DNA of 32,000 nt from Desulfobulbus propionicus DSM 2032 (GCF_000186885.1 NC_014972.1:3630001-3662000); one strand, 5' to 3'. Counted from the first letter of the stretch, positions 5,247 to 32,000 are shown. Program-made: numbers and translations. The notes: generated from the letters alone by a model not told the origin.

Positions 5247-8084
<2,838 letters not shown>

Positions 8085-8199
8085 AACAAGTACTCTGCGG
8101 GGAAAGGAGGCCGGGAGCAGGCTGGAGCACCGCACAAAACGGCCTCGATCTGTGTTCGTCGCCGGGCTTGCCGCTGCGAGCGCTCAAGAGACAATTTCG

Positions 8200-8283: not shown

Positions 8284-9159
8284 ATGTATTTTCAGGACAT
8301 CATCGCCACCTTGAACAGCTACTGGGCATCCGCGGGCTGCGTTGTCATGCAGCCCTATGACATGGAAGTCGGCGCCGGCACCTTTCATCCCGCCACCCTG
8401 CTCCGCGCCCTGGGGCCCGAGCCGTGGAAGGCCGCCTATGTCCAGCCCTCGCGCCGTCCCACCGATGGCCGCTATGGCGAGAACCCCAACCGGCTGCAAC
8501 ACTACTATCAGTACCAGGTGGTGATCAAACCCTCGCCCAAGGATGTGCAGGCCATGTACCTGGAGAGCCTGGAACGGTTCGGCCTCAATCTGCTCGAACA
8601 CGACATCCGCTTTGTCGAGGACGATTGGGAATCCCCGACCCTGGGGGCCTGGGGGCTGGGTTGGGAGGTGTGGCTCGACGGCATGGAGATCACCCAATTC
8701 ACCTACTTTCAGCAGGCCGGTTCGGTGGACCTCAAACCGATCACCGTGGAGATTACTTATGGTCTGGAGCGGATCGCCATGTATCTGCAGAAGGTGGATT
8801 CGGTCTACGACATTGCCTGGAACGAGCATGTGACCTACGGCGAGATCTTTCACCAGGCGGAAAAAGAGTTCTCGGCCTTCAACTTCGAGGAGGCCAATGT
8901 CGCCGACCTGACCGTGGCCTTTGACAACTACGAGCGCGAGGCCCTGAAACTGGTGGACAAGGGATTGATCCTGCCTGGCTACGACTACTGCCTCAAATGC
9001 TCGCACACCTTCAACCTGCTCGATGCCCGCAAGGCCATCAGCGTAGCCGAAAGAACACGCTATATCGGCCGGATACGCAACATCGCCCGCCAGGTGGCCC
9101 AGCGCTACGTCGAGCAGCGCGCGGCCATGGGGCATCCTTTGCTCAAGGCAACGGTCTAG
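8284..9159 (+). CDS. glyQ: glycine--tRNA ligase alpha subunit
   Basis: [48 protein letters not shown]...[28 protein letters not shown] is near-invariant GlyQ sequence. 291 aa. Confidence 0.97.
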
Positions 9160-10417: not shown

Positions 10418-11629
10418 CTATTCGTGGCTGATCGACATCGCACTGCCGGAAGTCGCGTCTCCTTGATTCGGCGGCAACCATCGAATGCCCAGTAGCAGCA
10501 ATCCCGCCACAAGCGTTGCGGCGGCAAGGGTGAGAAAGAGGACCGTGTAGCCGAATCGGTCCAGCAGCAACCCGCCGATACAGGGACCGAGAAAAAACCC
10601 GCCCTGCATCATCACAACGAGCAGGTTCTGGTTCATGGCCCGATGGGCCGGCGGGGAAAGGTCGAACATGGCGGCCGCCTGCAGGGGCATGGCGATTCCC
10701 CAGCCCAAGCCGGAAAATCCCGCCAGGAGCGCCAACCCCGGACTGGAGGCGCACAGAGGGAGCAGCGCGTAACAGACACTCGCCAGCACCAACCCAGCGG
10801 CACAGAGCTGTACCTTGTGGCAGCGGTCGAACAACCAGCTGCCCAACAACCGGACCGCGATCATCACCACTGTGGCCGTGGAGAAAAAGAGGCTGGTGTT
10901 GACAATACCCCGGCTGAGACCGAACTGTTTGAAATAAAAGAACAGCGTGGCGTAACCGGAAAAAAAGAGCAAGGTCGAGAGCAGCAGCGTCACCACGGCC
11001 GGCGAGCGCAGGCTGGCGGCCATGCCAGCCAATCCCGGGGGAGACGGTTTCTCTCCCCTTTCTGCGTGCCGGGCGGCCGGGAGCAGGAGCAGCAGTGGCG
11101 GCAGCAGCGCCACCACGGCGGCCGCGTGGAGCACGGCGGGGAATGACGCGGCCTGGATGGCGCGCAGATCAAACAGAAAGGGGATGAGTGCATACGGGAG
11201 CAAGCGAACCAGCGAAACCCAGCCAAAGGCCCGGCCGCTCATTGCCGGGGGAATACAGCCGACCAGCAGGGCCATCAGGGCCGACAGCATACAGATGAAC
11301 CCGCCACCTTGGAACAGCCGGGCCACGACCAGCAACGGCACCGAGGTGACCTGGGACAGCAGCGCGAGTGCCATCGACAGCAGCAGCGAACCGACGACGA
11401 GCCAGCGACGGGCGTTGGCAGAGTGGACCACGGGCGCGATCAATGGCTGGATGACCAAGGCGGCCAGGGCATCGGCACTGAGGATGAAGCCCGCGCTTGC
11501 CGGGCTCAGGCCCAGTAACTGGAGATAGCCGGAAAAGGCGAAAAACAGGGCGGCAATGGCCGTGACCAGGGCAAATTGGAGATTGATCGCCACAAACCCC
11601 GGAGAGATGAGCCCACGCCCCTCAGTCAC
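10418..11629 (-). CDS. MFS transporter
   Basis: 403 aa, almost entirely hydrophobic helices (roughly 12), with an MFS-like loop after TM2. GTG start at 11629 overlaps the stop of the upstream FAD-subunit gene by 8 nt. It is the last gene of the operon. Confidence 0.8.
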   Translation of the reverse strand: MTEGRGLISPGFVAINLQFALVTAIAALFFAFSGYLQLLGLSPASAGFILSADALAALVIQPLIAPVVHSANARRWLVVGSLLLSMALALLSQVTSVPLLVVARLFQGGGFICMLSALMALLVGCIPPAMSGRAFGWVSLVRLLPYALIPFLFDLRAIQAASFPAVLHAAAVVALLPPLLLLLPAARHAERGEKPSPPGLAGMAASLRSPAVVTLLLSTLLFFSGYATLFFYFKQFGLSRGIVNTSLFFSTATVVMIAVRLLGSWLFDRCHKVQLCAAGLVLASVCYALLPLCASSPGLALLAGFSGLGWGIAMPLQAAAMFDLSPPAHRAMNQNLLVVMMQGGFFLGPCIGGLLLDRFGYTVLFLTLAAATLVAGLLLLGIRWLPPNQGDATSGSAMSISHE

Positions 11630-12470
11630 CCAAGGCCTCCACGAAGCGAACCGCTAGGTTGGCCGCCACCAGGCGGCGATATTCGGCCGAGGCGCGGAGA
11701 TCGCTGAGGGGCGAAACCCCTTGATGTACCGTTTGATGGATATGGCCGAGGGGTGCGCGGTCAACCCGAACACCAACCAGTTCCGCCTCCAACCCAGGCA
11801 GCCGGACCACCGTCGGCCCGACGCTGCCCCAGGCCATGCGAATATCGGCAATGACGCCTTCGTCGTCAAGTCGGGCCAGACCGGCAAAGCTGGTCACCGA
11901 GATGGCATGGGCCCTTCGACGACCGACCTTGACAAACCGCTCACGGGAAAAAGGCGGTGCCTTGGGCAGCAGGATGCGGGTGATGAGTTCCCCCTGTTGC
12001 CGTGCCGTCCGTCCGGGACCGTGGAGAAAGGCATCGAGCGGCAGCACCCGCCTGCCTGCGGGCGAGGCCAACTCGATTCGGGCATCATGCAGACACAGCG
12101 GTGGCAAGGAATCGCCCGCAGGCGAGGCGGTGGCGATATTGCCGCCGATGGTGGCCATGTTCCTGACGGCTGGGCCGCCGATGGTTCGGGCGGCTTGGGC
12201 CACCAGCGGCGCATGCCGCTCCACCAGCGGATCGGCGAGGATGCGGGCAAAGGGCGTGGCCGCGCCGATGGCCAGGAAAGATGAGTGCTCGGCCACGCCC
12301 TGCAGTTGCTCGATGCGGGCCAGGGAAAGCAAGGGAGGAGCGCTGCCCGGGTCCCTGGCGCGCAATCGGACCAAAAGGTCGGTGCCGCCCGCCAGCGGCA
12401 ACGCATCGGGATGCTCGGCCAGCAGATCCAGGGCCTGGTCCAGGCAGGTGGGGATCAGGACCGCGCTCAT
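11622..12470 (-). CDS. molybdenum hydroxylase FAD-binding (medium) subunit, CoxM/XdhB-like
   Basis: Track ORF trimmed to ATG 12470, which forms an ATGA overlap with the upstream stop. FAD-binding-5 motifs are present: LPLAGGTDLLVRLR and GGPAVRNMATIGGNIATASPAGD. The C-terminal CO-dehydrogenase-flavoprotein-like part contains DLRASAEYRRLVA. Confidence 0.85.
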   Translation of the reverse strand: MSAVLIPTCLDQALDLLAEHPDALPLAGGTDLLVRLRARDPGSAPPLLSLARIEQLQGVAEHSSFLAIGAATPFARILADPLVERHAPLVAQAARTIGGPAVRNMATIGGNIATASPAGDSLPPLCLHDARIELASPAGRRVLPLDAFLHGPGRTARQQGELITRILLPKAPPFSRERFVKVGRRRAHAISVTSFAGLARLDDEGVIADIRMAWGSVGPTVVRLPGLEAELVGVRVDRAPLGHIHQTVHQGVSPLSDLRASAEYRRLVAANLAVRFVEALGD

Positions 12471-12946
12471 CGTTCCTCCCGGCAGCAGCGAATATCGCGG
12501 GCCGCTCGTTCGACCGCGTCGACGATTTTGGTGTAGCCGGTGCAACGGCAGAGGTTGCCGGACAATCCTTCACGAATGCAGTCACGATCCGGTGCGTTCT
12601 CCTGCCGGAGCAGGGCCAGGGCCGTCAGCTCCATGCCGGGAATGCAGAAGCCGCACTGAACCGCCCCCTCCTCGACAAAAGCCTGCTGGAGCAGCGCTCC
12701 TTCGGTCGTCGCCGCCACCCCTTCCACGGTGGTGACCCGGCAGCCTTCCAGCTGGGCCGCCACCATCAGGCAGGAGAGCCGCGTCTCACCGTTGACCAGG
12801 ACCGTGCAGGCACCGCACTCGCCGGTGCCGCAGCCTTCCTTGGTGCCGGTCATGCCCATATCCTCGCGTAGCAGATCCACCACCCGCCGATCAGGGGGGA
12901 CATCGATTGCAACCGGTGTCTCGTTCAGCGCAAACCGTACCTTCAT
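12467..12946 (-). CDS. molybdenum hydroxylase [2Fe-2S] (small) subunit, CoxS-like
   Basis: Plant-type ferredoxin cluster CGTGECGACTV...SC and second cluster QCGFCIPG...CRCTGY. 159 aa. ATGA overlaps occur at both ends. Confidence 0.9.
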   Translation of the reverse strand: MKVRFALNETPVAIDVPPDRRVVDLLREDMGMTGTKEGCGTGECGACTVLVNGETRLSCLMVAAQLEGCRVTTVEGVAATTEGALLQQAFVEEGAVQCGFCIPGMELTALALLRQENAPDRDCIREGLSGNLCRCTGYTKIVDAVERAARDIRCCREER

Positions 12947-15234
12947 GCCTTTTCCTCCAAAGCCAACAGCACCCGTTCCGGGGTCAGCGGTGCCTGATGC
13001 AGACGAATACCGCAGGCCTGGTCAACCGCGTTGGCCACCGCCGGCAGCGGGCCATTCATCGCCACCTCGCCCACCCCTTTGAGTCCAAACGGCCCGGTGG
13101 CCTCGGCTCCCTCAAGACGGCACGAATGGATGTCCGGCAGGTCCACAGCCGTGGGGATCAGGTAGGTGGCCAGGCTATCACTGTGCACCCTGCCCTCGTG
13201 CCGCTCCACCTCCTCCATCAGGGCATAGCCGATCCCCTGGGCCACCCCGCCCTGGATCTGCTGATCAAGCATGGTCGGATTGAGGACCGTGCCGCCGTCG
13301 GTGACGGCCACATAGTCGCACACCCGGATCAGGCCGGTCAACAGGTCGACCTCGATGCGGGCCAGATGCGCGCCGTAGGCAAAGATCACATGGGGGAAGC
13401 CGATGAAGAACCCCTTGGCCGTGTCCGGTGGCTGCTCGCACACCGGGGCCACGAACTGGCTGATGCATACCCGGTCCTCCTGGGGCATGAAGGCTGCCAG
13501 CTGCGCGAATTCCACCTGGCGACCCGTGGGCGGGTGGATCACCTTGCCGGGCACCAGGCGGAGATCGCGATCATCGTCGAGGAACAACAGCAGACCGGCG
13601 CGGTTAATCAGGCGGGCTCGCAGCTCCTCGCAGGCCTTGATCAGGGCATTGCCGAAGGTGTAGGTGGTGCGGCCCGCCGAGGCCGAACCCGAGGGATAGG
13701 CGGTGCGGGTGTCCGGCTGGCGCAATTCCATCTGGCCCGCATCCTGGGAGAGGATATGGCCGGCCATCTGCACAAAGGCGCTGCCATTGCCCTGGCCCAT
13801 GTCGGTGACCGCGTTGTGGACCACGATTTTCCCCTCCGCATTCAACTCCACCTTGGCAATGGCGGCATCGCGCACCTTGCCGCCATAACCGGCGGCATTG
13901 AAGACCGCCGCCAGGCCAAGGCCGCGCCGGGTCTGGGGTGGGGCCTGCGCCTTCCATGCCTGCCGCTCCTGCCACAGGGGGTGCTCACGCAGCCTCTCCA
14001 GGCAGCCAACCATGCCGGTCGAGGTGGTGAGCCGCAGGCCGGCGCAGTTGTCATCCCCCTCGACCAGGGCATTGCGCAGGCGCAGCTCCAGGGGATCCAT
14101 GCCGAGCTCTTGTGCCAGCAGGTCCATCATCGATTCCATGGCAAAGGCCACCTGGCAGACGCCAAAGGCCCGCATGGCCCCGGCCACCGGGTTGTTGGTG
14201 TAGACGCAGCGCCCCTCGATGAGCACATGGGGGATGCGGTAGGGGCCACCGGCATGCTCCATGCCCAGCTCCATCACCTCGCCGCCCAGATGGGCATAGG
14301 CGCCGGTGTCGTAGAGCAGGGAACAGTGCAGGGCGATGAGCGTGCCGTCCCGGTCCGCGCCCAGGCGGTAGCGCAGCCGGCAGGGGTGGCGCTTATAGCC
14401 GGCCACCATGCTCTCTTCCCGCTCCCAATGCATCTTCACCGGCCGGCCCTCGGCGTGCAGCGCGGCCAGGGCCAGCAGACACTGCACCGTGGCCCCGTCC
14501 TTGCCGCCGAACCCACCGCCCAAACAGGGAGCGACGATATGGAGGCGGTCGTAAGGAATGCCAAGGGCGGTGCCGACCTCGAACCGGTCGCGAAAGGGTG
14601 ATTGGCTCGACACGGTCATGGTGAGGGTGCCATCCTTCTCCAACCGGGCCACGCCGTTTTCCGTCTCCAGATAGATGTGCGCCTGCATGGGGGTGGAAAA
14701 TTCCCCTGCCACCACCACCTCGCAACGGGACAGGGCACGGTCGGCCTCGCCGGTGCGAATCTCGGCGGCCAGCAGGATGTTGCCGGCGTGCCCCTCGTGC
14801 AACAGGGGCGCCCCCTCGGTCAGAGCCGCTTCCGGATCAAACACCGCGGGCAGTGGTTCGATCTCCACCCGCACCCGGGCAATGGCCTGGCGCAGGGCCG
14901 TTCGGCTCTCGGCCAGGACCAGGGCCACGGCATCGCCGGCATGGCGCACCCGCTCGTTCACCAGCACCGGGGTGTCGCGATGGATGATGCCGTGGCGGTT
15001 GGGACCCGATACATCGGCGGCGGTCAGTACCTTGTAGACGCCGGAAACGGCCAGGGCCGCCTCGGTCGCCACCGAGAGCAACCGGCCGCTGGCGATGCCG
15101 GCCCGCACCACCCCGGCCCACAACAGGTTCTCCGGATAGAGGTCGGCGGCATAGGGTTCGATGCCGGCCGTCTTGGCCGCGGCATCGCAGCGCACCTCCG
15201 CGCGGCCCACCTGCAACGGTTCCCTGGCGGTCAT
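12943..15234 (-). CDS. molybdopterin-binding (large) subunit of a xanthine dehydrogenase/aldehyde oxidoreductase-family hydroxylase
   Basis: Track ORF 12943..15543, trimmed to ATG 15234 (MTAREPLQVGR...), which overlaps the aminotransferase stop as ATGA. Family motifs include HGIIHRDTPVL, MQAHIYLETENG, QSPFRDR, GGGFGGKDG and DMGQGNGSAF. About 763 aa. Confidence 0.9.
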   Translation of the reverse strand: MTAREPLQVGRAEVRCDAAAKTAGIEPYAADLYPENLLWAGVVRAGIASGRLLSVATEAALAVSGVYKVLTAADVSGPNRHGIIHRDTPVLVNERVRHAGDAVALVLAESRTALRQAIARVRVEIEPLPAVFDPEAALTEGAPLLHEGHAGNILLAAEIRTGEADRALSRCEVVVAGEFSTPMQAHIYLETENGVARLEKDGTLTMTVSSQSPFRDRFEVGTALGIPYDRLHIVAPCLGGGFGGKDGATVQCLLALAALHAEGRPVKMHWEREESMVAGYKRHPCRLRYRLGADRDGTLIALHCSLLYDTGAYAHLGGEVMELGMEHAGGPYRIPHVLIEGRCVYTNNPVAGAMRAFGVCQVAFAMESMMDLLAQELGMDPLELRLRNALVEGDDNCAGLRLTTSTGMVGCLERLREHPLWQERQAWKAQAPPQTRRGLGLAAVFNAAGYGGKVRDAAIAKVELNAEGKIVVHNAVTDMGQGNGSAFVQMAGHILSQDAGQMELRQPDTRTAYPSGSASAGRTTYTFGNALIKACEELRARLINRAGLLLFLDDDRDLRLVPGKVIHPPTGRQVEFAQLAAFMPQEDRVCISQFVAPVCEQPPDTAKGFFIGFPHVIFAYGAHLARIEVDLLTGLIRVCDYVAVTDGGTVLNPTMLDQQIQGGVAQGIGYALMEEVERHEGRVHSDSLATYLIPTAVDLPDIHSCRLEGAEATGPFGLKGVGEVAMNGPLPAVANAVDQACGIRLHQAPLTPERVLLALEEKA

Positions 15235-16361
15235 GCGGCAACTCCTTGTTTGTTCCGGATCATATCCACCTCCTCGGCCAGCGCCTCGACAAACCGTTCC
15301 ATCACTTCTCGCTCCCGCAGGGTGACCCGGATCCAGCCGGGAAAGCGGAACCCGGTCATGGTGCGAACCATCATGCCCCGCCGCATCAGCCGCCGGTACA
15401 TGAGCATGTCGTTGATCGGCGTGCGGATCATCAGGTAATTGCCCTCGCCGCCGACCGTTTCCAGCCCCAGATCCCGGCAGGCATCGCCCACCATGGCCTT
15501 GCCCTGCCGCACCAGGGCCCGGGTGGCGGCAATGTGCTCGCAATCGTCCTCCAGGGCGGCCAGGGCCGCCTGCTGGGCCTGGACATTGACCGAGTAGGCC
15601 ACGCTGGTGCGCCGCACCACCTCGACCACCGCCTCGGTGCCCGCCAGATAACCGACCCGCAATCCCGCCAGTCCATACATCTTGGAAAAGGTGCGGAAGA
15701 CCACCAGATTGGGGAATCGCTCCATCAGGCCGACGGTGTCGGGATAGTCCGGATCCTCCACATACTCCCGGTAGGCCTCGTCCACCACCACGATCCGGTC
15801 GTCACCAACCTGTTCGAGGAAATCGACCAGCACCTGGCGGGACCAGGAACTGCCGGTGGGGTTGTTGGGGTTGCAGACAAAGAGGATCTTGGTGTGGCGG
15901 TCGATGCGGTCGAGCATGGCCTGCGGGTCAAAGGCATAATCATGCAGCGGCGTCAACCGGGCCTCAATGCCGGAGAACTCGGCCACCCACTCGTAGACCG
16001 CAAAGGTCTTGTCGGCGGTGATGATGTTGTCGCCCGGCTGGCAGAAGGCCTTGATCACCGAGGAGATCACCTCGCAGGAGCCGTTGCCGACCAGAATCCG
16101 GTCCGCAACCAGGCCCAGGCGTACTCCCAGCGCCTGGCGGAGGTCATGGCAGTCGCCGCTGGGATAGACAGCGGCACGCTCAGGGGGAAAGGCGGCAATG
16201 ACCCTGGCGGCGGCCGGCGGCGGCCCCAGCGGATTTTCGTTGTTGTTGAGCCGGTGTAGCACCGGGGCACCGTATTCGCGCATCAGCAGATGATCCGGCT
16301 TGCTGGGCACATAGGCCTGAAAGCCACGCACATACTCGGGGATCAGGGCCTCAAGATTCAT
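15231..16361 (-). CDS. PLP-dependent aminotransferase, HisC (histidinol-phosphate/aromatic) family
   Basis: NNNENPLGPP, FVCNPNNPTG, VVVDEAYREY, and the PLP-lysine box RTFSKMYGLAGLRVGY. 376 aa. The substrate cannot be told from sequence. Confidence 0.85.
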   Translation of the reverse strand: MNLEALIPEYVRGFQAYVPSKPDHLLMREYGAPVLHRLNNNENPLGPPPAAARVIAAFPPERAAVYPSGDCHDLRQALGVRLGLVADRILVGNGSCEVISSVIKAFCQPGDNIITADKTFAVYEWVAEFSGIEARLTPLHDYAFDPQAMLDRIDRHTKILFVCNPNNPTGSSWSRQVLVDFLEQVGDDRIVVVDEAYREYVEDPDYPDTVGLMERFPNLVVFRTFSKMYGLAGLRVGYLAGTEAVVEVVRRTSVAYSVNVQAQQAALAALEDDCEHIAATRALVRQGKAMVGDACRDLGLETVGGEGNYLMIRTPINDMLMYRRLMRRGMMVRTMTGFRFPGWIRVTLREREVMERFVEALAEEVDMIRNKQGVAA

Positions 16362-17680
16362 GCGCGGGCCCCTGCTGCCGGATGGTCATAGATCACCAGG
16401 TCGCCCTGACCGCCATCCGGAATCACCAGACGAGGCACAAAGCCGGTCTCGGCCAGGGATGCGGCAAAGGCGGTGTCCTCGCTTCGGCCGGTGTTGAGTT
16501 CCACCAGGAAGTTGGCGATCCCCTCGCCCCGCAGCAACTCCAGGTGGGCGGCCAGGTTGGCGGTCATATCCCGGCCGGCGCACAGGGGACGGATCACCGC
16601 CAGCGATCGACCATATTCGAGTTCCACCGCCAGTACCGAACTGTCGCGCAACCGGGCGGGATCGCCCGATGACGGGCGGATCTGCCGGGGCAGGCAGAGG
16701 CGGTCGTACTGGGCGCCGAGGAAGGTGGCCAGCGGTTCGGCGCAGTAGACCGTGCCGCCGCTCTCTTCCTTGAGCTGGCGATAGTAGCAGGTGCAGCGGT
16801 TGATTCCTCCGGGCCCTCGCAGGGGGAGCTCGCCGAGGAAATCAAAGAAGCGCTCGGAGCCGGCGAAGGCTCCCTGCCGCCGTACCAGTCCCCGGAAGGC
16901 GGAACGGGAGATGCGGCCGACAGCCTCGTCGAGCAGCAGACGCAGCCCCTGGTCGCCCGGATCGTCACCGAACAGATAGGGGCCGTAGAGTTCCAGGCAG
17001 GCATCGGTCAGCGGCCGCCACAGCACGCCGCCCCGGATCCAGTTGCCCTGCTCGACCAGGAGCGCGCTCACATGGCCCACGGCCAGCATGGCCGCCGCCA
17101 TGTCCGGCCGGGCGAGAAAGCCGGGGAGGAATTCGCTCCCGGCGGTCACCGCCATGGCGGCAAAGTGACGCAGGTCCTCCCGGGAGGGATCGAGCAGGCG
17201 CAGCGGTCCCGCCAGGTCGGCCGGTGGCAACGGCACGGGAGCGGCCTGCGGATAGTCGCGGTCGCGGGTCATGCGCAGCGCCACCTGCTCGTCGGCGCCG
17301 AACTCGAGCCGCAGGCTGGAGACGCTGCGGGCGGCGAGCATCGGACCGAGCATCGCCAGCGCGTCCTCGTTGTCGAGGCTGCACCTCCAGGTCAGATTGA
17401 GGGCGCGCAGATCGGGATTGGCCACACGAAAGATCAGGGAGAGTGCCAGGCGATAGCCCTGGTCCTCCAGCTCGATCTCCACCGCCGAACCCTTGGCGGC
17501 CTGCTGGACATAGAAGGAGAACAGTTCCTCGGTGGCCAGCACCAGGCCGCCGGCCGCCGGACCGGTGGCGCCGAATCCCTGCGCGCCCTTGTCGACCAGG
17601 GTCATGACCAAGGGCAGGAACGGCGGGCTGAAGGGAAGACGCGCGGCGATGCTGTGCGGCCGGATTGACGACTGTTTCAT
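16358..17680 (-). CDS. hypothetical 440-aa protein with an N-terminal degenerate RsbW/HATPase-like region and a C-terminal region resembling the neighbouring GNAT-like protein
   Basis: ATG 17680 has AGGGGA 8 nt upstream, and the stop overlaps the aminotransferase start (ATGA). Coding is supported by its operon position and by residue patterns shared by eye with ORFs 21153..21563 and 17715..18764. I recognise no named family. Confidence 0.7.
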   Translation of the reverse strand: MKQSSIRPHSIAARLPFSPPFLPLVMTLVDKGAQGFGATGPAAGGLVLATEELFSFYVQQAAKGSAVEIELEDQGYRLALSLIFRVANPDLRALNLTWRCSLDNEDALAMLGPMLAARSVSSLRLEFGADEQVALRMTRDRDYPQAAPVPLPPADLAGPLRLLDPSREDLRHFAAMAVTAGSEFLPGFLARPDMAAAMLAVGHVSALLVEQGNWIRGGVLWRPLTDACLELYGPYLFGDDPGDQGLRLLLDEAVGRISRSAFRGLVRRQGAFAGSERFFDFLGELPLRGPGGINRCTCYYRQLKEESGGTVYCAEPLATFLGAQYDRLCLPRQIRPSSGDPARLRDSSVLAVELEYGRSLAVIRPLCAGRDMTANLAAHLELLRGEGIANFLVELNTGRSEDTAFAASLAETGFVPRLVIPDGGQGDLVIYDHPAAGARA

Positions 17681-17714: not shown

Positions 17715-18764
17715 TCATGCCTGACTCCGCAACCATTCGTTCCTGATCAGCTCCACCAGGGCGCGGCCGCGGTCGGAATGGATCTTCATCCCCGCGAAAT
17801 TCGGGTCCACCAGATGCTTCTGCAGCAGCAGCCCATCAGTGCCGAACCAGATCGGCAGCAGACCGCCGAGCGCATAGCCCTGGCCGCGCAGCTGCTCGAC
17901 CACCCCGCCGGCCCAGGGCTGACCGAGATCGACAAAGCATTGGATCAGGGCATAGTTATCGGCCCGCAACCGCTGCTCCAGGGCGCGCAACCGCCCGGGC
18001 AGATCCGCGCCCGGCGCGGTTACCGTGCAGCGGGCCACCCCGGCGAAGTCGAAGCGACCCACCTCGACGGCCGCCTCACCCGCTGGAATGCCGCTATCGG
18101 CCTCCACGATCTCGCGGTCCAGGGTGAACCCCTCCATGATGAAGCGCAGCTGGTCCCGATAGGGCCTGGGCAAAAACAGGGGTTTGCGCTGATCGACATC
18201 CACCCGGAAATAGACCAGACAGCCCACCCGGCCCAGGCCACTCCACTCGGTTTCGTACGCCTCGGCGGGCATCAGGGCCGGTTCCACCGCAGTTTCAAGA
18301 CCCTTGGCATGCTGTGTCAGTTTCTGGGTGATGGTGTGGTTGCATACTGCCTCACCAAAAATACCGTCAATCCCGTCCTTGCCCACCAGCCGCATCAGCA
18401 ACTGGGTTGCACGGAAAAAAGCCATGGTCGAGCGATAACTCGGCAGGGTCAGCCCCACGCCGTACTCGTAGAGCCGAGGGTTGGGCGGCGAGCTGCGATA
18501 CAAGGCGGCATGGGCCACCACCTCACCGGAAACCGTGCGCGCCACTGTGCTGCGGATGGTGCCTCGGCGGTTTTCCTCGGCCAGACGTTCGGGAATGTAG
18601 TAGGTGTCAATCGGATAGCCGTCACCGTAGACGGCATAAAAGAGCCGGGCCACGCCGGTGCCGTCGGACGGCTCGAAAAAGTGGGCCGCATACGCCTCGC
18701 CCTCGGGAACCACATGCGGCGTACTGGCCAGGAACTGCAGCGCCTCCTTTCTGTCCATGGTCAC
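17715..18764 (-). CDS. GNAT-like acyltransferase-family protein (two-domain, about 349 aa)
   Basis: The N-terminal half (GVARLFYAVYGDGYPIDTYYIPERLAEENRRGTIRSTVARTVSGEVVAHAALYR...EAVCNHTITQK) matches a widespread GNAT-family pattern recalled from memory. The start is GTG 18764 (GTGA overlap with the ACP stop) or ATG 18758. Confidence 0.65.
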   Translation of the reverse strand: MTMDRKEALQFLASTPHVVPEGEAYAAHFFEPSDGTGVARLFYAVYGDGYPIDTYYIPERLAEENRRGTIRSTVARTVSGEVVAHAALYRSSPPNPRLYEYGVGLTLPSYRSTMAFFRATQLLMRLVGKDGIDGIFGEAVCNHTITQKLTQHAKGLETAVEPALMPAEAYETEWSGLGRVGCLVYFRVDVDQRKPLFLPRPYRDQLRFIMEGFTLDREIVEADSGIPAGEAAVEVGRFDFAGVARCTVTAPGADLPGRLRALEQRLRADNYALIQCFVDLGQPWAGGVVEQLRGQGYALGGLLPIWFGTDGLLLQKHLVDPNFAGMKIHSDRGRALVELIRNEWLRSQA

Positions 18765-19027: not shown

Positions 19028-20533
19028 TCATTGCTTTAGTTTAAACCGCTGCACCTTGCCGGTGGGGGTGCGGGGCAGGTCATCGACAAACCGGTACACC
19101 AGGGGACACATATACTCGGGCAGACGAACGGCCAGGAAGGCGCGCAATGCCTTTTCCAGGGGCCGGCCGGGTTCGTGGCCCGGCCGCAGGATCAGGTGGG
19201 CGGCCGGACGCTCCAACCCACCAAGCCGATAGGCAGCCACCGCGCAGTCCGAGACCACCGGGTGGGTGCGCAACACCTCCTCGACCTGGAGCGGCGAGAT
19301 CCATTGGCCGCCGACCTTGAGCATGTCGTCGCTGCGGCCACGGTGCCAGTAGCGGCCCTCCTGTTCGACTGCCACATCGCCGGTACGGATGAACCCGTCG
19401 GCCAGCATGGTCTCGGCGGTCTTGTCCGGCCGGTTCCAATACCGGGGCGCCGCCCCCGGTCCGCGCACCAGCAGATGGCCGGTAACGCCCGAGGCCACCG
19501 GATTGCCGTCGTCATCCACCAGCCGCACCTCGTAGCCCGGCACCGGCCGGCCTGTGGAACCGGGGACCAGATCGCCCGGCCGGTTGGAGAGGAAGATGTG
19601 GGTCATCTCGGTGGAGCCGATGCCGTCCAGCACCTCCAGGCCGGTGAGCCGCTGCCACTCCTCGACCATGGCGGCAGGCAGGGCCTCCCCGGCGGAGACG
19701 CACAGCCGCATCGGCAGGGACAGGTGGTCCTCGTTGACACTGCGGATGAGCTGACCGTAGACCGTGGGCACCGAGAAGAACAGCGTTGGCCGATACCGCG
19801 CCATCAACGCCAGGAGCTGATCGGGCAGGGGATTGTCGGGATGGAGTACCGCCGTGGCGCCGACATATAACGGGAAGGCCAAGCTGTTGCCCAGGCCGTA
19901 GGCAAAATAGAGTTTGCTGGCCGACAGCACCACGTCGTCCTCGCCCATGCCCAACACCTGCACCGCATAGCGTTCGGCCGCCGCCAGCAGGTCGCCATGG
20001 CGATGGGGCACCCCCTTGGGCCGGCCGGTGGAGCCCGAGGTATAGAGCATGTAGGCCAGATCGTCCGGCCCGACCGCGGCGGCTGCCACCGGGACGCTGG
20101 GCCTCTCGGCCACGGCCTCGGCGAGCCGCTCGCCACAAACCAGGCAGTCCGTTCTGGCGCGGGGAAATCCCTCGATCGCCGCCACAGATGGCGAGACCAG
20201 GGCCAGTCGGGCCTCGCTGTCGCTGAGCAGGAAGTCATAGGTCTCGGCATTCAAGGCAGTGCCGACCGGGACCGCGACCGCACCGATCAGGGTGGTCCCC
20301 AGAAAGGCGGCGACGAACACCGGCGAATCCACCAGGACGATCAGCACCCGGTCGCCCGGCCCTATGCCCTTGGCGTGCAACAGGCGGGCAAAACCATAGG
20401 CGCCCGCAGCCAGCTGCCGATAGCTGACCGCCTGGCCTGCGCAGAGATAGGCAGTTTTGTCGGGATGGCGCGCGAGATTGGGCAGGAGCAGGTGCGCTGT
20501 CAGGTTGCGGTTATTGGCTGTACATCCGTTCAT
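19028..20533 (-). CDS. AMP-forming adenylating enzyme, benzoate-CoA ligase family
   Basis: AMP-binding core YTSGSTGRPKGVPHRH. Family-typical SKLYFAYGLGNSLAFPL and DGIGSTEMTHIFLSNR. C-terminal RSDDMLKVGGQWISP and PRTPTGKVQRFKL. The start overlaps the cupin stop (ATGA). Confidence 0.9.
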   Translation of the reverse strand: MNGCTANNRNLTAHLLLPNLARHPDKTAYLCAGQAVSYRQLAAGAYGFARLLHAKGIGPGDRVLIVLVDSPVFVAAFLGTTLIGAVAVPVGTALNAETYDFLLSDSEARLALVSPSVAAIEGFPRARTDCLVCGERLAEAVAERPSVPVAAAAVGPDDLAYMLYTSGSTGRPKGVPHRHGDLLAAAERYAVQVLGMGEDDVVLSASKLYFAYGLGNSLAFPLYVGATAVLHPDNPLPDQLLALMARYRPTLFFSVPTVYGQLIRSVNEDHLSLPMRLCVSAGEALPAAMVEEWQRLTGLEVLDGIGSTEMTHIFLSNRPGDLVPGSTGRPVPGYEVRLVDDDGNPVASGVTGHLLVRGPGAAPRYWNRPDKTAETMLADGFIRTGDVAVEQEGRYWHRGRSDDMLKVGGQWISPLQVEEVLRTHPVVSDCAVAAYRLGGLERPAAHLILRPGHEPGRPLEKALRAFLAVRLPEYMCPLVYRFVDDLPRTPTGKVQRFKLKQ

Positions 20534-27975: not shown

Positions 27976-28073
27976 TGGCGGAAGTGCATGGGAATCGAAC
28001 CCACCTGCCGGGCTATTCACCCGACACACCGGATTTGAAGTCCGGGAGAGCCACCAGAGCCCTTTCCACTTCC
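27976..28073 (-). tRNA. selC: tRNA-Sec (anticodon UCA)
   Basis: Minus strand reads GGAAGTGGAAAGGGCTCTGGTGGCTCTCCCGGACTTCAAATCCGGTGTGTCGGGTGAATAGCCCGGCAGGTGGGTTCGATTCCCATGCACTTCCGCCA. Hand fold: extended acceptor, 6-bp D stem, anticodon loop CTTCAAA (UCA), 7-bp extra arm, TTCGATT T loop, G discriminator and encoded CCA. The ends (GGAAG...CTTCCGCCA) and GGACTTCAAATCC are as in E. coli selC. Confidence 0.85.
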
Positions 28074-30238: not shown

Positions 30239-32000
30239 ATGAAACTCGTTGAATTAATAGGCAAGACTCCTCTGGTCGAGTTGGCTCGGCTCAATCCCGC
30301 CGCTGGCAAGGTCCAACTGCTGGGCAAACTCGAATCCCGCAATCCCGGGGGCTCAATCAAGGACCGGGTTGCCCTGTCCATGGTCGAAGCCGCCGAAAAA
30401 AGCGGCGAACTGACCCGCGACAAGATCCTCCTCGAAGCCACCAGCGGCAATACCGGTATCGGCATGGCCATGGTGTGCGCGGCCAAACAGTACCGTTGCC
30501 AGCTGATCATGCCGGAATCGGCGTCCATCGAGCGACGGCTGATCATGCAGGCCTACGGCGCGGAGATCATCCTCACTCCGGCCAAGCGGGCCACCGACGG
30601 AGCGATCGAGAAGGCCTATGCCCTGGCCCGCGAACATCCTGACCGCTACTTTCTCGCCGACCAATTCAACAACCCCGCCAACTGGCAAGCCCATTACACC
30701 TCGACCGCGCCAGAGATCTGGCAACAGACAGAGGGCAAGGTCACCGACATCATCGTCACCTTGGGCACCTCGGGCACGGCCATGGGACTGTCCCGCTGGT
30801 TCCGCGACCACCATCCCGAGGTGCGGGTGATTGCCGTGGAACCTCATCCCGGCCACAAGATCCAGGGGCTGAAGAACATGAAGGAGTCCTACAAACCCGG
30901 CATCTTCGACAAAACCCTGCCCCATGCCATCGTCAACGTGGCCGATGCGGATGCCTTTGCCACCGTTCGCCGCCTGGCCGCCGAGGAGGGCGTTTTTGCC
31001 GGCATGAGCAGCGGCGCGGCCATGTTTGTCGCCATGGAGCGGGCCCGGGAAATCGACGGGGGATGCATCGTCGTCATCCTGCCCGACGGCGGTGAACGCT
31101 ACCTGAGCACCCCACTGTTCAAACAGCCGGCCAAGAGCAAGGAAGAGGCGTCGCAGCTGCGGTTGTTCAACACCATGACCCGGAAAAAAGAGGTCTTCCA
31201 ACCGATTCGCGACAACCGAGTGACCCTCTATGCCTGTGGGCCGACCGCCGCCGAATCGCCCAACATCGCCCACTGCCGCCGCCTCATCGTTGCCGATCTC
31301 ATCAACCGCTCCCTCCTCGCCCAGGGGTACGCGGTCGAACTGTACATGAACTTCACCGATCTCGACGACAACACCATCACCGGCGCCATTGACGCCGGCG
31401 CTGACCTGCGCGAGTTCACGGGACGATACATCGACGAGTTCAAGCAGGCCATCGAGGCCCTCAACGTGCAGCAGGCCACCGGCTATCCGCTCGCCTCCGA
31501 GCATGTCGGCCACATGATCGAAATCGCCCACGACCTGATCCACAAAGGATATGCTTACGAGAAACTCGGGTCGATCTATTTCGATATTTCCAAATTCAAA
31601 CACTACGGCCGCCTCTCGGGAATCGACTTGAGCAAAATCAAGATCGGCCAGACCGTGGACCTCGACAACTACGAGAAGGACAACCCCCGCGACTTCACCC
31701 TGCTCAAGCGGTCCACCCTGGCGGAGCTGAAAAAGGGCATTTTCTACGAAACCGACTGGGGCAATATCCGCCCCGGCTGGCATATCGAGTGCTCGGCCAT
31801 GTCGACCAACTATCTCGGGGAAACCATCGACATCCACACCGCCAGCCAGGATCTGCTCTTTCCTCATCACGAAAACGAGATCGCCATCGCCGAGGCCCTG
31901 ACCGGCAAACCGCTGGCCAACTACTGGCTCCACTCCGGTCAACTGCTCATGGACGGCCGCAAAATGGCCAAGGAAACCGGCAACGTGGTCACCCTGCGCG
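30239..32000 (+). CDS. fusion protein: CysM/CysK-family cysteine synthase (N-terminal) and cysteinyl-tRNA-synthetase-like catalytic domain (C-terminal); 3' end lies beyond the window
   Basis: It is not in the ORF track because there is no stop in the window. I walked all 587 codons from ATG 30239 to 32000 without meeting a stop; an in-frame TGA lies upstream at 30212. The N-terminal domain has NPGGSIKDR, TSGNTG, LGTSGT and HKIQGLKNMKE. From nt 31157 the sequence is colinear with CysRS from its first residues: LRLFNTMTRKKEVFQPI, LYACGPT, NFTDLDDNTI, RPGWHIECSAM, FPHHENEIA, MDGRKMAKETGN. Confidence 0.85.
   Translation, partial: MKLVELIGKTPLVELARLNPAAGKVQLLGKLESRNPGGSIKDRVALSMVEAAEKSGELTRDKILLEATSGNTGIGMAMVCAAKQYRCQLIMPESASIERRLIMQAYGAEIILTPAKRATDGAIEKAYALAREHPDRYFLADQFNNPANWQAHYTSTAPEIWQQTEGKVTDIIVTLGTSGTAMGLSRWFRDHHPEVRVIAVEPHPGHKIQGLKNMKESYKPGIFDKTLPHAIVNVADADAFATVRRLAAEEGVFAGMSSGAAMFVAMERAREIDGGCIVVILPDGGERYLSTPLFKQPAKSKEEASQLRLFNTMTRKKEVFQPIRDNRVTLYACGPTAAESPNIAHCRRLIVADLINRSLLAQGYAVELYMNFTDLDDNTITGAIDAGADLREFTGRYIDEFKQAIEALNVQQATGYPLASEHVGHMIEIAHDLIHKGYAYEKLGSIYFDISKFKHYGRLSGIDLSKIKIGQTVDLDNYEKDNPRDFTLLKRSTLAELKKGIFYETDWGNIRPGWHIECSAMSTNYLGETIDIHTASQDLLFPHHENEIAIAEALTGKPLANYWLHSGQLLMDGRKMAKETGNVVTLR

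What the first reader, a model, noticed from the sequence alone, without database searches (positions are those of the whole stretch)
30239..32000. ORF missing from the track: cysteine synthase fused in frame to a CysRS-like domain with altered HIGH and KMSKS motifs
Seen:
- One + strand frame stays open from ATG 30239 to the window end.
- The only track entry here is the antisense shadow ORF 30353..31942.
- Residues 1 to about 294 are a fold-type-II PLP cysteine synthase, with the PLP lysine in GGSIKDR at 30359-30361.
- After a 12-residue linker (KQPAKSKEEASQ), residue 307 (nt 31157) begins a colinear match to the extreme N-terminus of class I cysteinyl-tRNA synthetase.

Established:
- In E. 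coli CysRS the zinc/cysteine pocket uses the Cys of the CG(I/P)T motif, the Cys of WHIECS and the His/Glu of HHENE.
- All are present here: TGT 31235-31237, TGC 31790-31792, HHENE 31865-31879.
- Both class I signatures differ: HIGH reads NIAH (31262-31273) and KMSKS reads KMAKE (31961-31975).
- A CysRS paralogue that ligates cysteine to a non-tRNA amine is known (MshC in mycothiol synthesis).
- The N-terminal domain (GLKNMKESYKPGIFD) reminds me of mycobacterial CysM-type enzymes, which take sulfur from a thiocarboxylated carrier. This is from memory and not verified.

Inference: a single polypeptide makes cysteine (or an analogue) and immediately activates it. It could then channel it to a tRNA or ligate it to a small-molecule acceptor, as in low-molecular-weight thiol pathways. 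I do not recognise this architecture as characterised.
Basis: partly seen in the sequence, partly recalled or inferred. Interest (0 to 1): 0.85.

Follow-up and report, generated by a model that had tools for sequence, protein, structure and literature searches.

The report
Cysteine synthase fused to decaying CysRS
This is a real gene in Desulfobulbus propionicus that joins a working cysteine-making enzyme to a cysteinyl-tRNA synthetase copy that still looks able to hold cysteine and its tRNA but is losing its ATP-using machinery, and it belongs to an apparently undescribed family, widespread in sulfate-reducing bacteria, that may link cysteine production directly to the cysteine tRNA.

Summary
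One + strand frame is open from ATG 30239 to the window end. It encodes the first 587 of 775 residues of a Desulfobulbus propionicus protein: a CysM-type cysteine synthase, a flexible linker, then a complete CysRS-like module including the anticodon-binding domain. HIGH reads NIAH and KMSKS reads KMAKE; GGG is also TAS and KIIK is NTIT.

The gene belongs to a distinct CysRS paralogue clan that is always partnered with one CysM subfamily. The two are fused in Desulfobulbales, Desulfobacterales-type MAGs and Desulfovibrionales, and are adjacent genes in basal members.

Across the clan the CysM half is always catalytically intact. The CysRS-like active site decays stepwise to complete loss in more than 100 Desulfovibrionales clusters. 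The CP domain and anticodon-recognition residues stay 97-100% conserved.

D. propionicus is an intermediate: zinc/cysteine pocket and tRNA surfaces kept, ATP site eroded. Its closest relatives mostly lack the second KMSKS lysine.

Most likely this is a cysteine/tRNA-Cys-binding module coupled to cysteine synthase, analogous to HisZ, and not the housekeeping synthetase.

I could not determine whether a second cysS exists. No paper I searched describes this fusion.

The parts
30239..32000 (+). Open reading frame: first 587 of 775 codons of the CysM / CysRS-like fusion protein. The stop is predicted at about 32566, outside the window.
   Evidence: P0001 is 100% identical, 775 aa.
30239..31123 (+). 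CysM-type fold-type-II PLP cysteine synthase domain (residues 1-295).
   Evidence: Pfam PALP E 1.4e-70. NCBIfam cysKM scores 357-360 bits against a cutoff of 344. The best PDB matches are CysM/OASS-B at 267-274 bits.
30359..30361 (+). PLP-binding lysine K41 in GGSIKDR.
   Evidence: It is invariant in every fused and split family member.
30440..30457 (+). TSGNTG substrate-carboxylate (Asn) loop.
   Evidence: It is conserved in all members as [TS]SGNTG; two MAG fusions read SSGNTG.
30854..30892 (+). Lid motif HKIQGLKNMKESY, the signature of the partner CysM subfamily. K212 aligns with the Arg of Mtb CysM 'LRNM' and of E. coli CysM 'IRRW'.
31121..31156 (+). Linker KQPAKSKEEASQ, variable in length and sequence across the family and predicted to be disordered.
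   Evidence: variable. (pLDDT below 50 for residues 290-300).
31157..32000 (+). CysRS-like module, first 281 of 469 residues. The SC-fold remainder, DALR_2 helical bundle and C-terminal anticodon domain lie beyond the window.
   Evidence: TIGR00435 scores 402.9 bits against a cutoff of 340 for the full protein.
31235..31237 (+). Cys333, equivalent to the E. coli C28 zinc ligand (ACGPT).
   Evidence: Invariant in the Desulfobulbales branch. Retained in 0% of Desulfovibrionales fusions.
31262..31273 (+). NIAH in place of HIGH (E. coli H37-I-G-H40).
   Evidence: The first position is Asn in 117 of 122 and the third is Ala in 120 of 122 sequences of the branch.
31370..31381 (+). NTIT in place of KIIK (E. 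coli K73-K76).
31547..31774 (+). CP (connective polypeptide) domain carrying the clan signature GYAYEK..S.YFD, NPRDFTLLKR and WGNIRPGW. It is the most conserved part of the CysRS-like half.
31778..31795 (+). WHIECS: equivalents of the cysteine-pocket Trp (E. coli W205) and the C209 zinc ligand.
31835..31852 (+). HTASQD in place of HGGGxD. The two glycines, conserved in 85% or more of canonical CysRS, are replaced by Ala and Ser.
31865..31879 (+). HHENE: equivalents of the E. coli H234 and E238 zinc ligands.
31961..31975 (+). KMAKE in place of KMSKS.
   Evidence: The second Lys is present in only 2 of 122 sequences of the branch, and KMAGD is typical.
30353..31942 (-). Antisense shadow ORF of 529 aa; not a gene.
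   Evidence: listed. (no Pfam family).

Best explanation
**What it is (shown)**
- The gene encodes a 775-aa protein: an intact CysM-type cysteine synthase, tethered by a flexible linker to a full-length CysRS-derived module.
- It belongs to a distinct clan of CysRS paralogues that are always partnered with this one CysM subfamily.
- The two are fused in Desulfobulbales, Desulfobacterales-type MAGs and Desulfovibrionales. They are adjacent, near-abutting genes in basal members.

**What is conserved (shown)**
- Across the clan the CysM half never loses a catalytic motif.
- The CysRS-like half loses its ATP-site and then its zinc-site residues stepwise.
- The CP domain and the C-terminal anticodon-recognition residues are kept throughout.
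- The D. propionicus protein is an intermediate. It keeps the Cys/Zn pocket and the tRNA-docking surfaces. It has lost the first His and the Gly of HIGH, the GGG glycines and the KIIK lysines.

**How it most likely works (inferred)**
- The module no longer serves mainly as an ATP-dependent synthetase.
- It acts as a cysteine-binding and tRNA-Cys-binding module that couples the attached cysteine synthase to cysteine or tRNA-Cys status. The coupling could be allosteric control or tethering.
- The closest precedent is HisZ, a dead HisRS paralogue that regulates HisG.
- A separate canonical CysRS, or another route to Cys-tRNA-Cys, is predicted to exist in the genome.
For: - **Architecture.** establish the domains.
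- **Separate clan.** Ten clan-specific residues are shared by the fused and the split members and by no canonical CysRS. The clan separates from canonical CysRS in an NJ tree.
- **Rosetta-stone partnership.** P0136 lies 2 nt downstream of a PALP gene, and P0287 lies 4 nt downstream of one. L009 is also split. The adjacent PALPs are 57-61% identical to the fused CysM domain and carry the same lid motif.
- **Decay series.** Motifs run from near-canonical HLGN/KMSRS (P0121), through NIAH/KMAKE here and NLSL/KMSAE in Desulfocapsa, to QLSE with no KMSKS, and finally to no zinc Cys, HIGH or KMSKS.
- **Retention of canonical invariants by domain.** The dead forms keep 6-11 of 25-27 Rossmann invariants, but 13-14 of 18 in the CP domain and 5-7 of 7 in the C-terminal domain.
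- **120 Desulfovibrionales clusters (54-85% identical, all 754-817 aa).** C333, H342, G344, C518 and E547 are retained in 0% and K575/K578 in at most 1%. R732, R736, D745, R748, G755, D760 and G764 are retained in 97-100%. The CP domain is as conserved as CysM (0.72 against 0.73).
- **Desulfobulbales branch.** The CP domain (0.84-0.89) and the zinc-pocket half (0.77-0.94) are more conserved than CysM (0.67-0.75). The HIGH-bearing half is least conserved (0.55-0.59). K578 is Gly in 102 of 122.
- **Free amino-acid chemistry.** The [TS]SGNTG carboxylate loop is intact in every member.
- **Precedent.** HisZ is described in the review read.
Against: - D. propionicus still keeps 75 of 91 canonical CysRS invariants. 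These include all four zinc ligands, the fourth His of HIGH and both lysines of KMAKE.
- It passes NCBI's cysS equivalog cutoff, 402.9 bits against 340.
- E. coli CysRS K73A, K76A, K266A and K269A mutants kept protein-synthesis capacity in vitro (PMC5660078). The lysine losses therefore do not prove inactivity.
- The neighbours are housekeeping genes (dciA, tmk, surE), as expected for a housekeeping synthetase.
- I could not show that D. propionicus has a second cysS.
- There is no direct evidence for regulation.
- AlphaFold gives two confident modules but pTM of only 0.60 and a disordered linker, so no fixed interface is predicted.
Confidence: 0.45

Rival explanations
1. It is a true bifunctional enzyme. 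The CysRS module is still an active, possibly the only, cysteinyl-tRNA synthetase of D. propionicus with a tolerated variant ATP site. Fusion serves to hand freshly made cysteine directly to tRNA charging.
For: - It passes the cysS equivalog cutoff.
- All zinc ligands, the cysteine-pocket Trp, the fourth His, K575 and K578, and the whole anticodon domain are kept.
- The catalytic core is strongly constrained in Desulfobulbales (Ross2 0.77-0.94).
- E. coli CysRS tolerates K-to-A changes at KIIK and KMSKS for translation.
- An independent fusion of a fully canonical CysRS to the same CysM subfamily exists in a Nanoarchaeota MAG (0 of 10 clan residues; HIGN, KMSKS). That shows coupling synthesis to charging can be selected.
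- The gene context is housekeeping.
Against: - The first His and the Gly of HIGH and two of the GGG glycines are replaced across the branch. No canonical representative among the 94 examined shows this.
- Orthologues at 63-64% identity over the CysRS-like half have no HIGH histidine at all (NLSL, NLAL) and no second KMSKS lysine.
- Position 578 varies freely (G, S, D, H, K, E) among relatives at 84% identity or more, so it is unconstrained.
- The same orthologous clan runs on to forms that cannot be synthetases.
- AlphaFold predicts a disordered linker and no fixed inter-domain geometry for a channel.
Confidence: 0.3
2. The module docks tRNA-Cys as a substrate carrier, and the PLP domain acts on the aminoacyl group. 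One version converts O-phosphoseryl-tRNA-Cys or seryl-tRNA-Cys to Cys-tRNA-Cys, as an analogue of SepCysS. Another modifies Cys-tRNA-Cys.
For: - The CP domain and the anticodon-recognition residues are conserved even in catalytically dead forms. tRNA docking in the normal geometry therefore appears to be the conserved function.
- The PLP chemistry, beta-replacement with sulfide, is the same as that of SepCysS (own knowledge).
- The fusion and operon linkage are tight.
Against: - The substrate alpha-carboxylate loop [TS]SGNTG is intact in all members. An esterified aminoacyl-tRNA has no free carboxylate.
- No SepRS was looked for or found.
- The zinc pocket is conserved in Desulfobulbales but lost in Desulfovibrionales, which is hard to reconcile with one shared tRNA-linked chemistry.
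Confidence: 0.1
3. It is an MshC-like amide ligase. The module adenylates cysteine and ligates it to a small-molecule amine in a low-molecular-weight-thiol pathway.
For: - MshC is a precedent for a CysRS paralogue with a non-tRNA acceptor.
- The cysteine/zinc pocket is retained.
Against: - The MshC model scores 199 bits against a cutoff of 485.
- An ATP-dependent ligase needs exactly the motifs that are decaying here.
- The anticodon-binding domain and its recognition residues are kept.
- No glycosyltransferase, deacetylase or acetyltransferase partner is conserved next to the gene across loci.
Confidence: 0.04
4. It is an artefact: two ordinary adjacent genes (cysM and cysS) joined by a sequencing or assembly error at the junction.
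For: - Split versions with a stop codon between the two halves do exist in other lineages.
Against: - The identical fused protein occurs in the finished genome and in independent JGI, ENA and Logan assemblies.
- Hundreds of fused orthologues exist across three orders.
Confidence: 0.01

Closest known systems
HisZ, a HisRS paralogue that is the regulatory subunit of ATP-phosphoribosyltransferase HisG
   Same: - Both are aaRS paralogues that have lost, or are losing, adenylation.
- Both are physically associated with an enzyme that makes the cognate amino acid.
- HisZ keeps the amino-acid pocket and mediates end-product inhibition. Here the Cys/Zn pocket is kept in Desulfobulbales.
   Different: - HisZ is a separate subunit, belongs to class II and, from my own knowledge, lacks the anticodon-binding domain.
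- Here the module is class I and usually fused.
- Here the anticodon-recognition residues are the most persistently conserved feature.
- Regulation has not been shown here.
Canonical bacterial CysRS (E. coli CysS, PDB 1LI5 and 1U0B; TIGR00435)
   Same: - The match is colinear over all domains, E 9e-83 to 1LI5.
- Zinc ligands, DALR_2 and the C-terminal domain are present.
- The equivalog cutoff is passed.
   Different: - HIGH reads NIAH, GGG reads TAS, KIIK reads NTIT and KMSKS reads KMAKE (KMAGD in relatives).
- Ten clan-specific substitutions occur, mostly in the CP domain, and canonical W489 of DFxLWK is replaced by Leu.
- An N-terminal CysM domain is attached.
- The nearest unfused canonical CysRS is only about 41% identical.
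MshC, the mycothiol cysteine ligase
   Same: Both are CysRS paralogues that retain the cysteine/zinc pocket.
   Different: - MshC keeps its ATP motifs and lacks the C-terminal anticodon domain (own knowledge).
- It scores 199 bits here against a cutoff of 485.
- It belongs to a different lineage with a different gene context.
CysRS*, the SelC*-charging CysRS of a Desulfobacterales subgroup (Mukai et al., cited in PMC9437257)
   Same: - Both are non-canonical CysRS paralogues found in Desulfobacterota.
- A tRNA-Sec gene happens to lie 2.2 kb from the gene in this window.
   Different: - CysRS* lacks the anticodon-binding domain. This protein keeps it.
- The nearby tRNA has G73 and is an ordinary tRNA-Sec.
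- No tRNA-Sec lies near the fusion in nine other loci.
CysM: E. coli/Salmonella O-acetylserine sulfhydrylase B, and the M. tuberculosis CysM/CysO O-phosphoserine system
   Same: - The N-terminal domain is CysM-like throughout, with the short lid and a basic residue at the position of E. coli R210 and Mtb 'LRNM'.
   Different: - It scores below both the CysM and CysK equivalog cutoffs (343 against 394, and 319 against 351).
- It has its own invariant lid motif HKIQGLKNM.
- There is no Mtb-type C-terminal tail.
- No cysO or moeZ gene lies in the window or within 10 kb downstream. A MoeB/ThiF-type gene follows one split pair only.
- The substrate (OAS or OPS) and the sulfur donor are unknown.
GCN2 HisRS-like domain, a sensor of uncharged tRNA in eukaryotes (own knowledge)
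   Same: Both are catalytically dead aaRS-like domains, fused to an effector enzyme, that retain tRNA binding.
   Different: - GCN2 is eukaryotic, controls a kinase and binds many tRNAs.
- Here the anticodon-specific residues for tRNA-Cys are kept and the effector is a biosynthetic enzyme.
- tRNA binding has not been demonstrated here.

Membership tests
CysK/CysM cysteine synthase (TIGR01136 cysKM subfamily) | Score at or above the curated cutoff of the subfamily model | tested here: met
   357-360 bits against a cutoff of 344.15.
CysK/CysM cysteine synthase (TIGR01136 cysKM subfamily) | PLP lysine (SxKDR), Asn/carboxylate loop TSGNTG, GTxGT phosphate loop and SSGAA | tested here: met
   All are present in P0001 and in every family member; two MAG fusions read SSGNTG at the Asn loop.
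CysM equivalog (TIGR01138, PRK11761) or CysK equivalog (TIGR01139) | Score at or above the curated equivalog cutoff | tested here: not met
   CysM 343-345 bits against 394.2; PRK11761 336-339 against 413; CysK 319-322 against 351.
CysK/CysM cysteine synthase | Catalyses O-acetylserine or O-phosphoserine plus a sulfur donor to give cysteine | not testable with these tools
   Needs an enzyme assay. The substrate and the sulfur donor are unknown.
Canonical cysteine-tRNA ligase (TIGR00435 equivalog) | Score at or above the curated cutoff over the full length | tested here: met
   402.9 bits against 340. For comparison, the canonical-motif fusion P0123 scores 517, and the dead P0126 had no cysS match at the E <= 1e-40 threshold used.
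Canonical cysteine-tRNA ligase | Four zinc/cysteine-pocket ligands (E. coli C28, C209, H234, E238) | tested here: met
   C333, C518, H543 and E547 align to them. The motifs carrying them are invariant in the 120 close relatives.
Canonical cysteine-tRNA ligase | Class I HIGH signature (HxGH or HxGN) | tested here: not met
   It reads NIAH. In the Desulfobulbales branch the first position is Asn in 117 of 122 and the third is Ala in 120 of 122. All 94 canonical representatives were selected for having HxG[HN].
Canonical cysteine-tRNA ligase | KMSKS signature with a conserved second lysine | tested here: inconclusive
   D. propionicus has KMAKE with both lysines. The second Lys is present in only 2 of 122 sequences of the branch. 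E. coli K269A still supports translation in vitro.
Canonical cysteine-tRNA ligase | Anticodon-binding helical bundle (DALR_2) and C-terminal domain with conserved recognition residues | tested here: met
   DALR_2 and CysS_C are present. All 7 of 7 C-terminal invariants are kept.
Canonical cysteine-tRNA ligase | Aminoacylates tRNA-Cys and is the cell's CysRS | not tested
   This needs biochemistry. I tried to learn whether a second cysS exists in D. propionicus but could not resolve it.
MshC (TIGR03447) | Score at or above the curated cutoff | tested here: not met
   199.3 bits against 485.1.
MshC (TIGR03447) | Truncated architecture without the C-terminal anticodon domain, and a mycothiol gene context | tested here: not met
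   The full CysRS architecture is present. The neighbours are dciA, a periplasmic-binding protein gene and polysaccharide genes.
CysRS* / SelC* recoding system | CysRS lacking the anticodon-binding domain | tested here: not met
   The domain is present with its conserved residues. The definition comes from PMC9437257.
CysRS* / SelC* recoding system | Genetic coupling to a tRNA-Sec-like tRNA-Cys (SelC*) and to SelB* | tested here: not met
   The tRNA-Sec 2.2 kb away has G73. No tRNA-Sec lies in nine other fusion loci. No gene called within 10 kb on either side carries an elongation-factor-type domain. That SelC* carries U73 is from my memory.
M. tuberculosis-type CysM/CysO/MoeZ thiocarboxylate pathway | CysO-type carrier and MoeZ-type E1 encoded alongside CysM | tested here: not met
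   None lies in the window or within 10 kb downstream. A MoeB/ThiF-type gene follows one split pair, L086.

The most novel reading that the evidence does not exclude
The conserved job of the CysRS-like module is to dock tRNA-Cys in the normal synthetase geometry, so that the fused fold-type-II PLP enzyme works on the tRNA-bound amino acid. That would be a second, SepCysS-independent, tRNA-dependent route to Cys-tRNA-Cys, or a tRNA-linked cysteine modification, in sulfate-reducing bacteria. The weaker but still novel version is my best explanation: a biosynthetic enzyme gated directly by its cognate tRNA.
Probability: 0.1. Interest if true: 0.95.

Novelty: new variant of a known kind. Interest (0 to 1): 0.72.

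Why it matters
- **A new aaRS paralogue family.** aaRS paralogues that have given up aminoacylation are a recurring source of new biology: HisZ, GCN2, MshC, EpmA, GluQRS. This would add a CysRS-derived family, and it is unusual in three ways.
  - It is locked to the enzyme that makes the cognate amino acid.
  - It is caught at every stage from active-looking to catalytically dead.
  - It keeps the anticodon-specific tRNA contacts after catalysis is gone.
- **A testable idea.** It makes directly testable the proposal that a bacterial biosynthetic enzyme is controlled by, or acts on, its own tRNA.
- **Annotation errors.** The same protein is named 'cysteine--tRNA ligase' in some genomes and 'cysteine synthase' in others. 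TIGR00435 is a standard single-copy marker gene (from memory), so the Desulfobulbales forms that pass its cutoff could distort completeness estimates, marker-based phylogenies and metabolic reconstructions for Desulfobacterota.
- **Cysteine metabolism.** It bears on how sulfate reducers, which live in sulfide, manage cysteine synthesis.

Tried and rejected
1. **Second cysS in D. propionicus.**
   - A canonical Thermodesulfobacteriota bait (P0197) returned only Syntrophales-type proteins at 67% identity or more.
   - tblastn of all held loci found only the fusion itself.
   - Supplementary tables of two related genome papers held nothing, and a third paper was not held.
   - The question is unresolved.
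2. **CysRS*/SelC* link through the neighbouring tRNA-Sec.** Rejected: the tRNA has G73, the anticodon domain is present, and the proximity is not conserved.
3. **MshC-like ligase.** Rejected on model score, architecture and context.
4. **Leader RNA, T-box, promoter or terminator in the 192-nt upstream spacer.** Nothing found.
5. **A conserved sulfur-carrier or cysE neighbour across loci.** None found. The neighbours are dciA, tmk and surE.
6. **Cysteine persulfide synthase reading.** The PLP-binding lysines reported for E. coli CysRS (K73, K76, K269) are the ones missing here. That activity, as described, is unlikely to reside in this module. The coincidence with a fused PLP enzyme is noted but remains speculative.
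7. **A single origin of all CysM-CysRS fusions.** Rejected: the Nanoarchaeota fusion shares 0 of 10 clan residues and nests among canonical CysRS.
8. **A fixed inter-domain channel.** AlphaFold does not support one: pTM is 0.60 and the linker is disordered.
9. **Prior description.** Ten full-text literature searches found none.


Full report
**1.
- Translating 30239-32000 on the + strand gives 587 codons with no stop.
- The mechanical ORF list lacks this frame only because it omits ORFs that run off the source. It does list the antisense 30353..31942 frame, which matches no Pfam family and is a shadow ORF.
- Pfam finds PALP at residues 6-283 (E 1.4e-70) and tRNA-synt_1e at 320-586 (E 1.5e-81).
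- Alignment to solved CysRS structures (8QHP, 3TQO, 1LI5) confirms HIGH to NIAH and KMSKS to KMAKE.

**2. Source and full length.**
- The window is Desulfobulbus propionicus DSM 2032. The 775-aa protein P0001 is 100% identical over the 587 residues.
- It carries PALP, tRNA-synt_1e, DALR_2 and CysS_C.
- The identical protein is found in the 3.85-Mb finished genome and in independent JGI, ENA and Logan assemblies. The junction is not a sequencing error.
- Sources disagree on its name: 'cysteine synthase' at NCBI, 'Cysteine--tRNA ligase' at UniRef.

**3. The N-terminal half is an intact CysM-type enzyme.**
- It passes the cysKM subfamily cutoff (357-360 bits against 344). It falls below both the CysM and CysK equivalog cutoffs.
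- Its best structural relatives by sequence are enterobacterial CysM (267-274 bits). M. tuberculosis CysM scores 209.
- At the lid, GLKNM aligns with Mtb ALRNM and E. coli GIRRW.
- The PLP lysine, the [TS]SGNTG carboxylate loop, GTxGT, SSGAA and a lid motif HKIQGLKN[ML]xE are kept in every family member examined.

**4. The C-terminal half belongs to a distinct, CysM-partnered CysRS clan.**
- Fusions occur in Ca. Desulfobulbus rimicarensis, Desulfocapsa, Desulfopila, Desulfobacterales-type and Thermodesulfobacteriota MAGs at 51-72% identity. The nearest unfused canonical CysRS is only about 41% identical.
- The all-against-library search finds several 50%-identity clusters of full-length fusions.
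- Ten residues are shared by 85% or more of the Desulfobacterota fusions and by 10% or less of 94 canonical CysRS representatives: R348, T472, L475, T487, R491, L494, L497, K498, G500 and L559.
- The two apparently unfused nearest relatives carry 7 and 8 of these ten residues. Both are encoded directly downstream of a PALP gene, with gaps of 2 nt and 4 nt. A third lineage (L009) has a stop and a spacer of about 70 nt between the halves.
- Those adjacent PALP proteins are 57-61% identical to the fused CysM domain and carry the same lid motif. The partnership is therefore conserved whether the genes are fused or split, a classic Rosetta-stone signal.
- A Nanoarchaeota fusion (P0123; HIGN, WHLECS, KMSKS) shares 0 of 10 clan residues and nests among canonical CysRS. 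It is an independent fusion to the same CysM subfamily.

**5. The active site decays across the clan and the tRNA surfaces do not.** The motifs form a series:

| Member | HIGH | Cys-pocket motif | KMSKS |
|---|---|---|---|
| P0121 | HLGN | WHIECA | KMSRS |
| D. propionicus | NIAH | WHIECS | KMAKE |
| Desulfocapsa | NLSL | WHIECS | KMSAE |
| Desulfobacterales-type | HLGE or QLSE | WHIQCA | none |
| D. ferrophilus type | DPEF | WFMQMA | none |

- I defined 91 columns that are at least 85% conserved in the 94 canonical representatives. D. propionicus keeps 75 of them.
- The dead forms keep only 6-11 of 25-27 in each Rossmann half. They keep 13-14 of 18 in the CP domain and 5-7 of 7 in the C-terminal domain.
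- The dead form is not a pseudogene. 120 clusters, 754-817 aa long and 54-85% identical, occur across cultured Desulfovibrionales: Desulfocurvus, Desulfobaculum, Maridesulfovibrio, Salidesulfovibrio, Desulfoplanes and Desulfocurvibacter africanus.
- Among those clusters C333, H342, G344, C518 and E547 are retained in 0%, K575/K578 in at most 1%, and the KMSKS loop is deleted. R732, R736, D745, R748, G755, D760 and G764 are retained in 97-100%. The CP domain is as conserved as the CysM half (0.72 against 0.73 mean pairwise identity).
- By the alignment, those C-terminal residues correspond to E. coli R423, R427, D436, R439, G446, D451 and G455. From memory of the E. coli CysRS/tRNA-Cys complex, R427, D436, R439 and D451 contact the GCA anticodon. 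I could not verify that here.

**6. Where D. propionicus sits.**
- In its own branch (119 near-full-length relatives at 84% identity or more, plus three Desulfobulbales MAG fusions), the zinc ligand motifs ACGPT and HHENE are invariant and WHIEC[ST] nearly so.
- These canonical invariants are replaced: V337A, Y338F/A, H342N (117 of 122), G344A (120 of 122), K378N, G535A, G536S, Q550I, S551A, K578G (102 of 122; Lys in only 2) and S579D.
- Against the Desulfobulbales orthologues, the CP domain (0.84-0.89) and the zinc-pocket half of the Rossmann fold (0.77-0.94) are more conserved than the CysM domain (0.67-0.75). The HIGH-bearing half is least conserved (0.55-0.59).
- Selection therefore guards the cysteine pocket and the tRNA-docking parts, and has let go of the ATP site.

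**7. Caveats.**
- The protein still passes NCBI's cysS equivalog cutoff (402.9 against 340; P0123 scores 517).
- Akaike et al. (PMC5660078) report that E. coli CysRS K73A, K76A, K266A and K269A mutants keep protein-synthesis capacity in a cell-free system while losing persulfide synthase activity. The lysine losses alone are therefore not proof of inactivity. The argument rests on HIGH, GGG and the family trend.
- I could not establish whether D. propionicus has another cysS.
- The neighbours are housekeeping genes: dciA here and in Desulfobulbaceae, tmk and surE in Desulfobacterales-type loci.

**8. Alternatives checked.**
- MshC: 199 bits against a cutoff of 485, the wrong architecture and the wrong context.
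- CysRS*/SelC*: a 2022 review lists only MshC and CysRS* as CysRS paralogues, and defines CysRS* as lacking the anticodon-binding domain. The tRNA-Sec at 27976-28073 (-) has G73 and an encoded CCA. No tRNA-Sec lies near the fusion in nine other loci.
- No riboswitch, T-box, promoter-like or terminator-like site was found in the upstream spacer.
- AlphaFold2 with a 50-sequence family alignment gives mean pLDDT 84.7 and pTM 0.60, with pLDDT below 50 in the linker (290-300) and in a CP loop (469-481). That means two confident modules on a flexible tether with no fixed channel geometry. The disordered CP loop contains clan-invariant residues G470, T472, V473, D474, Y478 and K480, as expected of a loop that orders on binding a partner.

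**9. Mechanism.**
- Shown: the architecture, the clan, the fused or split partnership, the pattern of decay and the pattern of conservation.
- Inferred: the module's conserved function is binding tRNA-Cys and, in Desulfobulbales, also cysteine or a cysteinyl group through zinc. This binding is coupled to the attached cysteine synthase.
- The closest precedent is HisZ, a non-adenylating HisRS paralogue that mediates histidine feedback on HisG. GCN2's HisRS-like tRNA sensor is a second analogue (own knowledge).
- The intact carboxylate loop in all CysM domains favours ordinary free-substrate cysteine synthesis over chemistry on aminoacyl-tRNA. The latter is not excluded.
- My estimates for D. 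propionicus:
  - 0.45: binding or regulatory module that is not the housekeeping synthetase.
  - 0.30: still-active bifunctional enzyme.
  - 0.10: tRNA-dependent chemistry.
  - 0.04: MshC-like ligase.
  - 0.01: artefact.
  - The remainder is unassigned.

**10. Novelty.** Ten full-text searches found no description of a CysK/CysM-CysRS fusion or of this clan. The components and the general idea of an aaRS paralogue partnered with a biosynthetic enzyme are known. I therefore rate it a new variant of a known kind, of high interest to the aaRS and sulfur-metabolism fields.

Noticed in passing
window 27976-28073 (-): A tRNA-Sec gene (anticodon TCA, G73, encoded CCA; Rfam RF01852 at 72 bits) lies 2.2 kb upstream of the fusion on the opposite strand. 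It is an ordinary SelC, not a SelC*-type tRNA-Cys. No tRNA-Sec lies near the fusion in nine other loci.
   Followed up: yes
L010 2644-3642; L011 1707-2666; L014 7135-8034; L007 7650-7763 (cut by the contig end): A conserved protein of about 320 aa with no Pfam or NCBIfam match directly follows the fusion gene, overlapping its stop in L010. This is seen in all four Desulfobacterales-type loci (30% identity, E 2e-47 between L010 and L011). It is absent from the D. propionicus window and from the other loci, so it may be a subclade-specific partner.
   Followed up: partly
L086 6553-7293: A MoeB/ThiF-type E1-like adenylyltransferase gene follows one split PALP / CysRS-like pair by 16 nt. It scores 252 bits to PRK08762, below the curated cutoffs. 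This is the only hint of a sulfur-carrier link, and it is not seen in the other loci.
   Followed up: partly
P0123 (Nanoarchaeota MAG protein, 768 aa): This is an independent fusion of a fully canonical CysRS (HIGN, WHLECS, KMSKS; 517 bits on TIGR00435) to the same CysM subfamily (lid HTIQGLKNL). It shares 0 of 10 clan-specific residues, so the same architecture arose convergently in a DPANN archaeon.
   Followed up: partly
window 8284-9159 (+): glyQ, the GlyRS alpha subunit (Pfam tRNA-synt_2e, E 1.7e-152), has no + strand ORF of 100 aa or more after it until 10643. glyS therefore does not appear to be adjacent. uvrA lies immediately upstream on the opposite strand (5247-8135).
   Followed up: no
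window 16358-17680 (-) and 17715-18764 (-): Two long ORFs (440 and 349 aa) have no Pfam or NCBIfam match. They sit between a class I/II aminotransferase gene (15231-16361) and an AMP-binding enzyme gene (19028-20533), next to a xanthine-dehydrogenase-family molybdoenzyme cluster (11622-15543).
   Followed up: no
L005 5762-5838 and L006 2523-2599: A tRNA-Arg(TCT) gene lies just downstream of the fusion in the Desulfocapsa and Desulfopila loci. It is not present in D. propionicus.
   Followed up: no
P0001 residues 469-481 (window 31643-31681): A CP-domain loop is predicted to be disordered (pLDDT below 50). It nevertheless contains residues that are invariant between the Desulfobulbus clade and the dead Desulfovibrionales forms (G470, T472, V473, D474, Y478, K480). 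This suggests a loop that orders on binding a partner.
   Followed up: partly
Annotation of P0001, P0012, P0032, P0126 and P0452 in public databases: The same architecture is named 'cysteine synthase', 'cysteine--tRNA ligase', 'cysteinyl-tRNA synthetase' or 'cystathionine beta-synthase' depending on the source. The Desulfobulbales forms pass the TIGR00435 cutoff, and that model is used as a single-copy marker gene (from memory).
   Followed up: no
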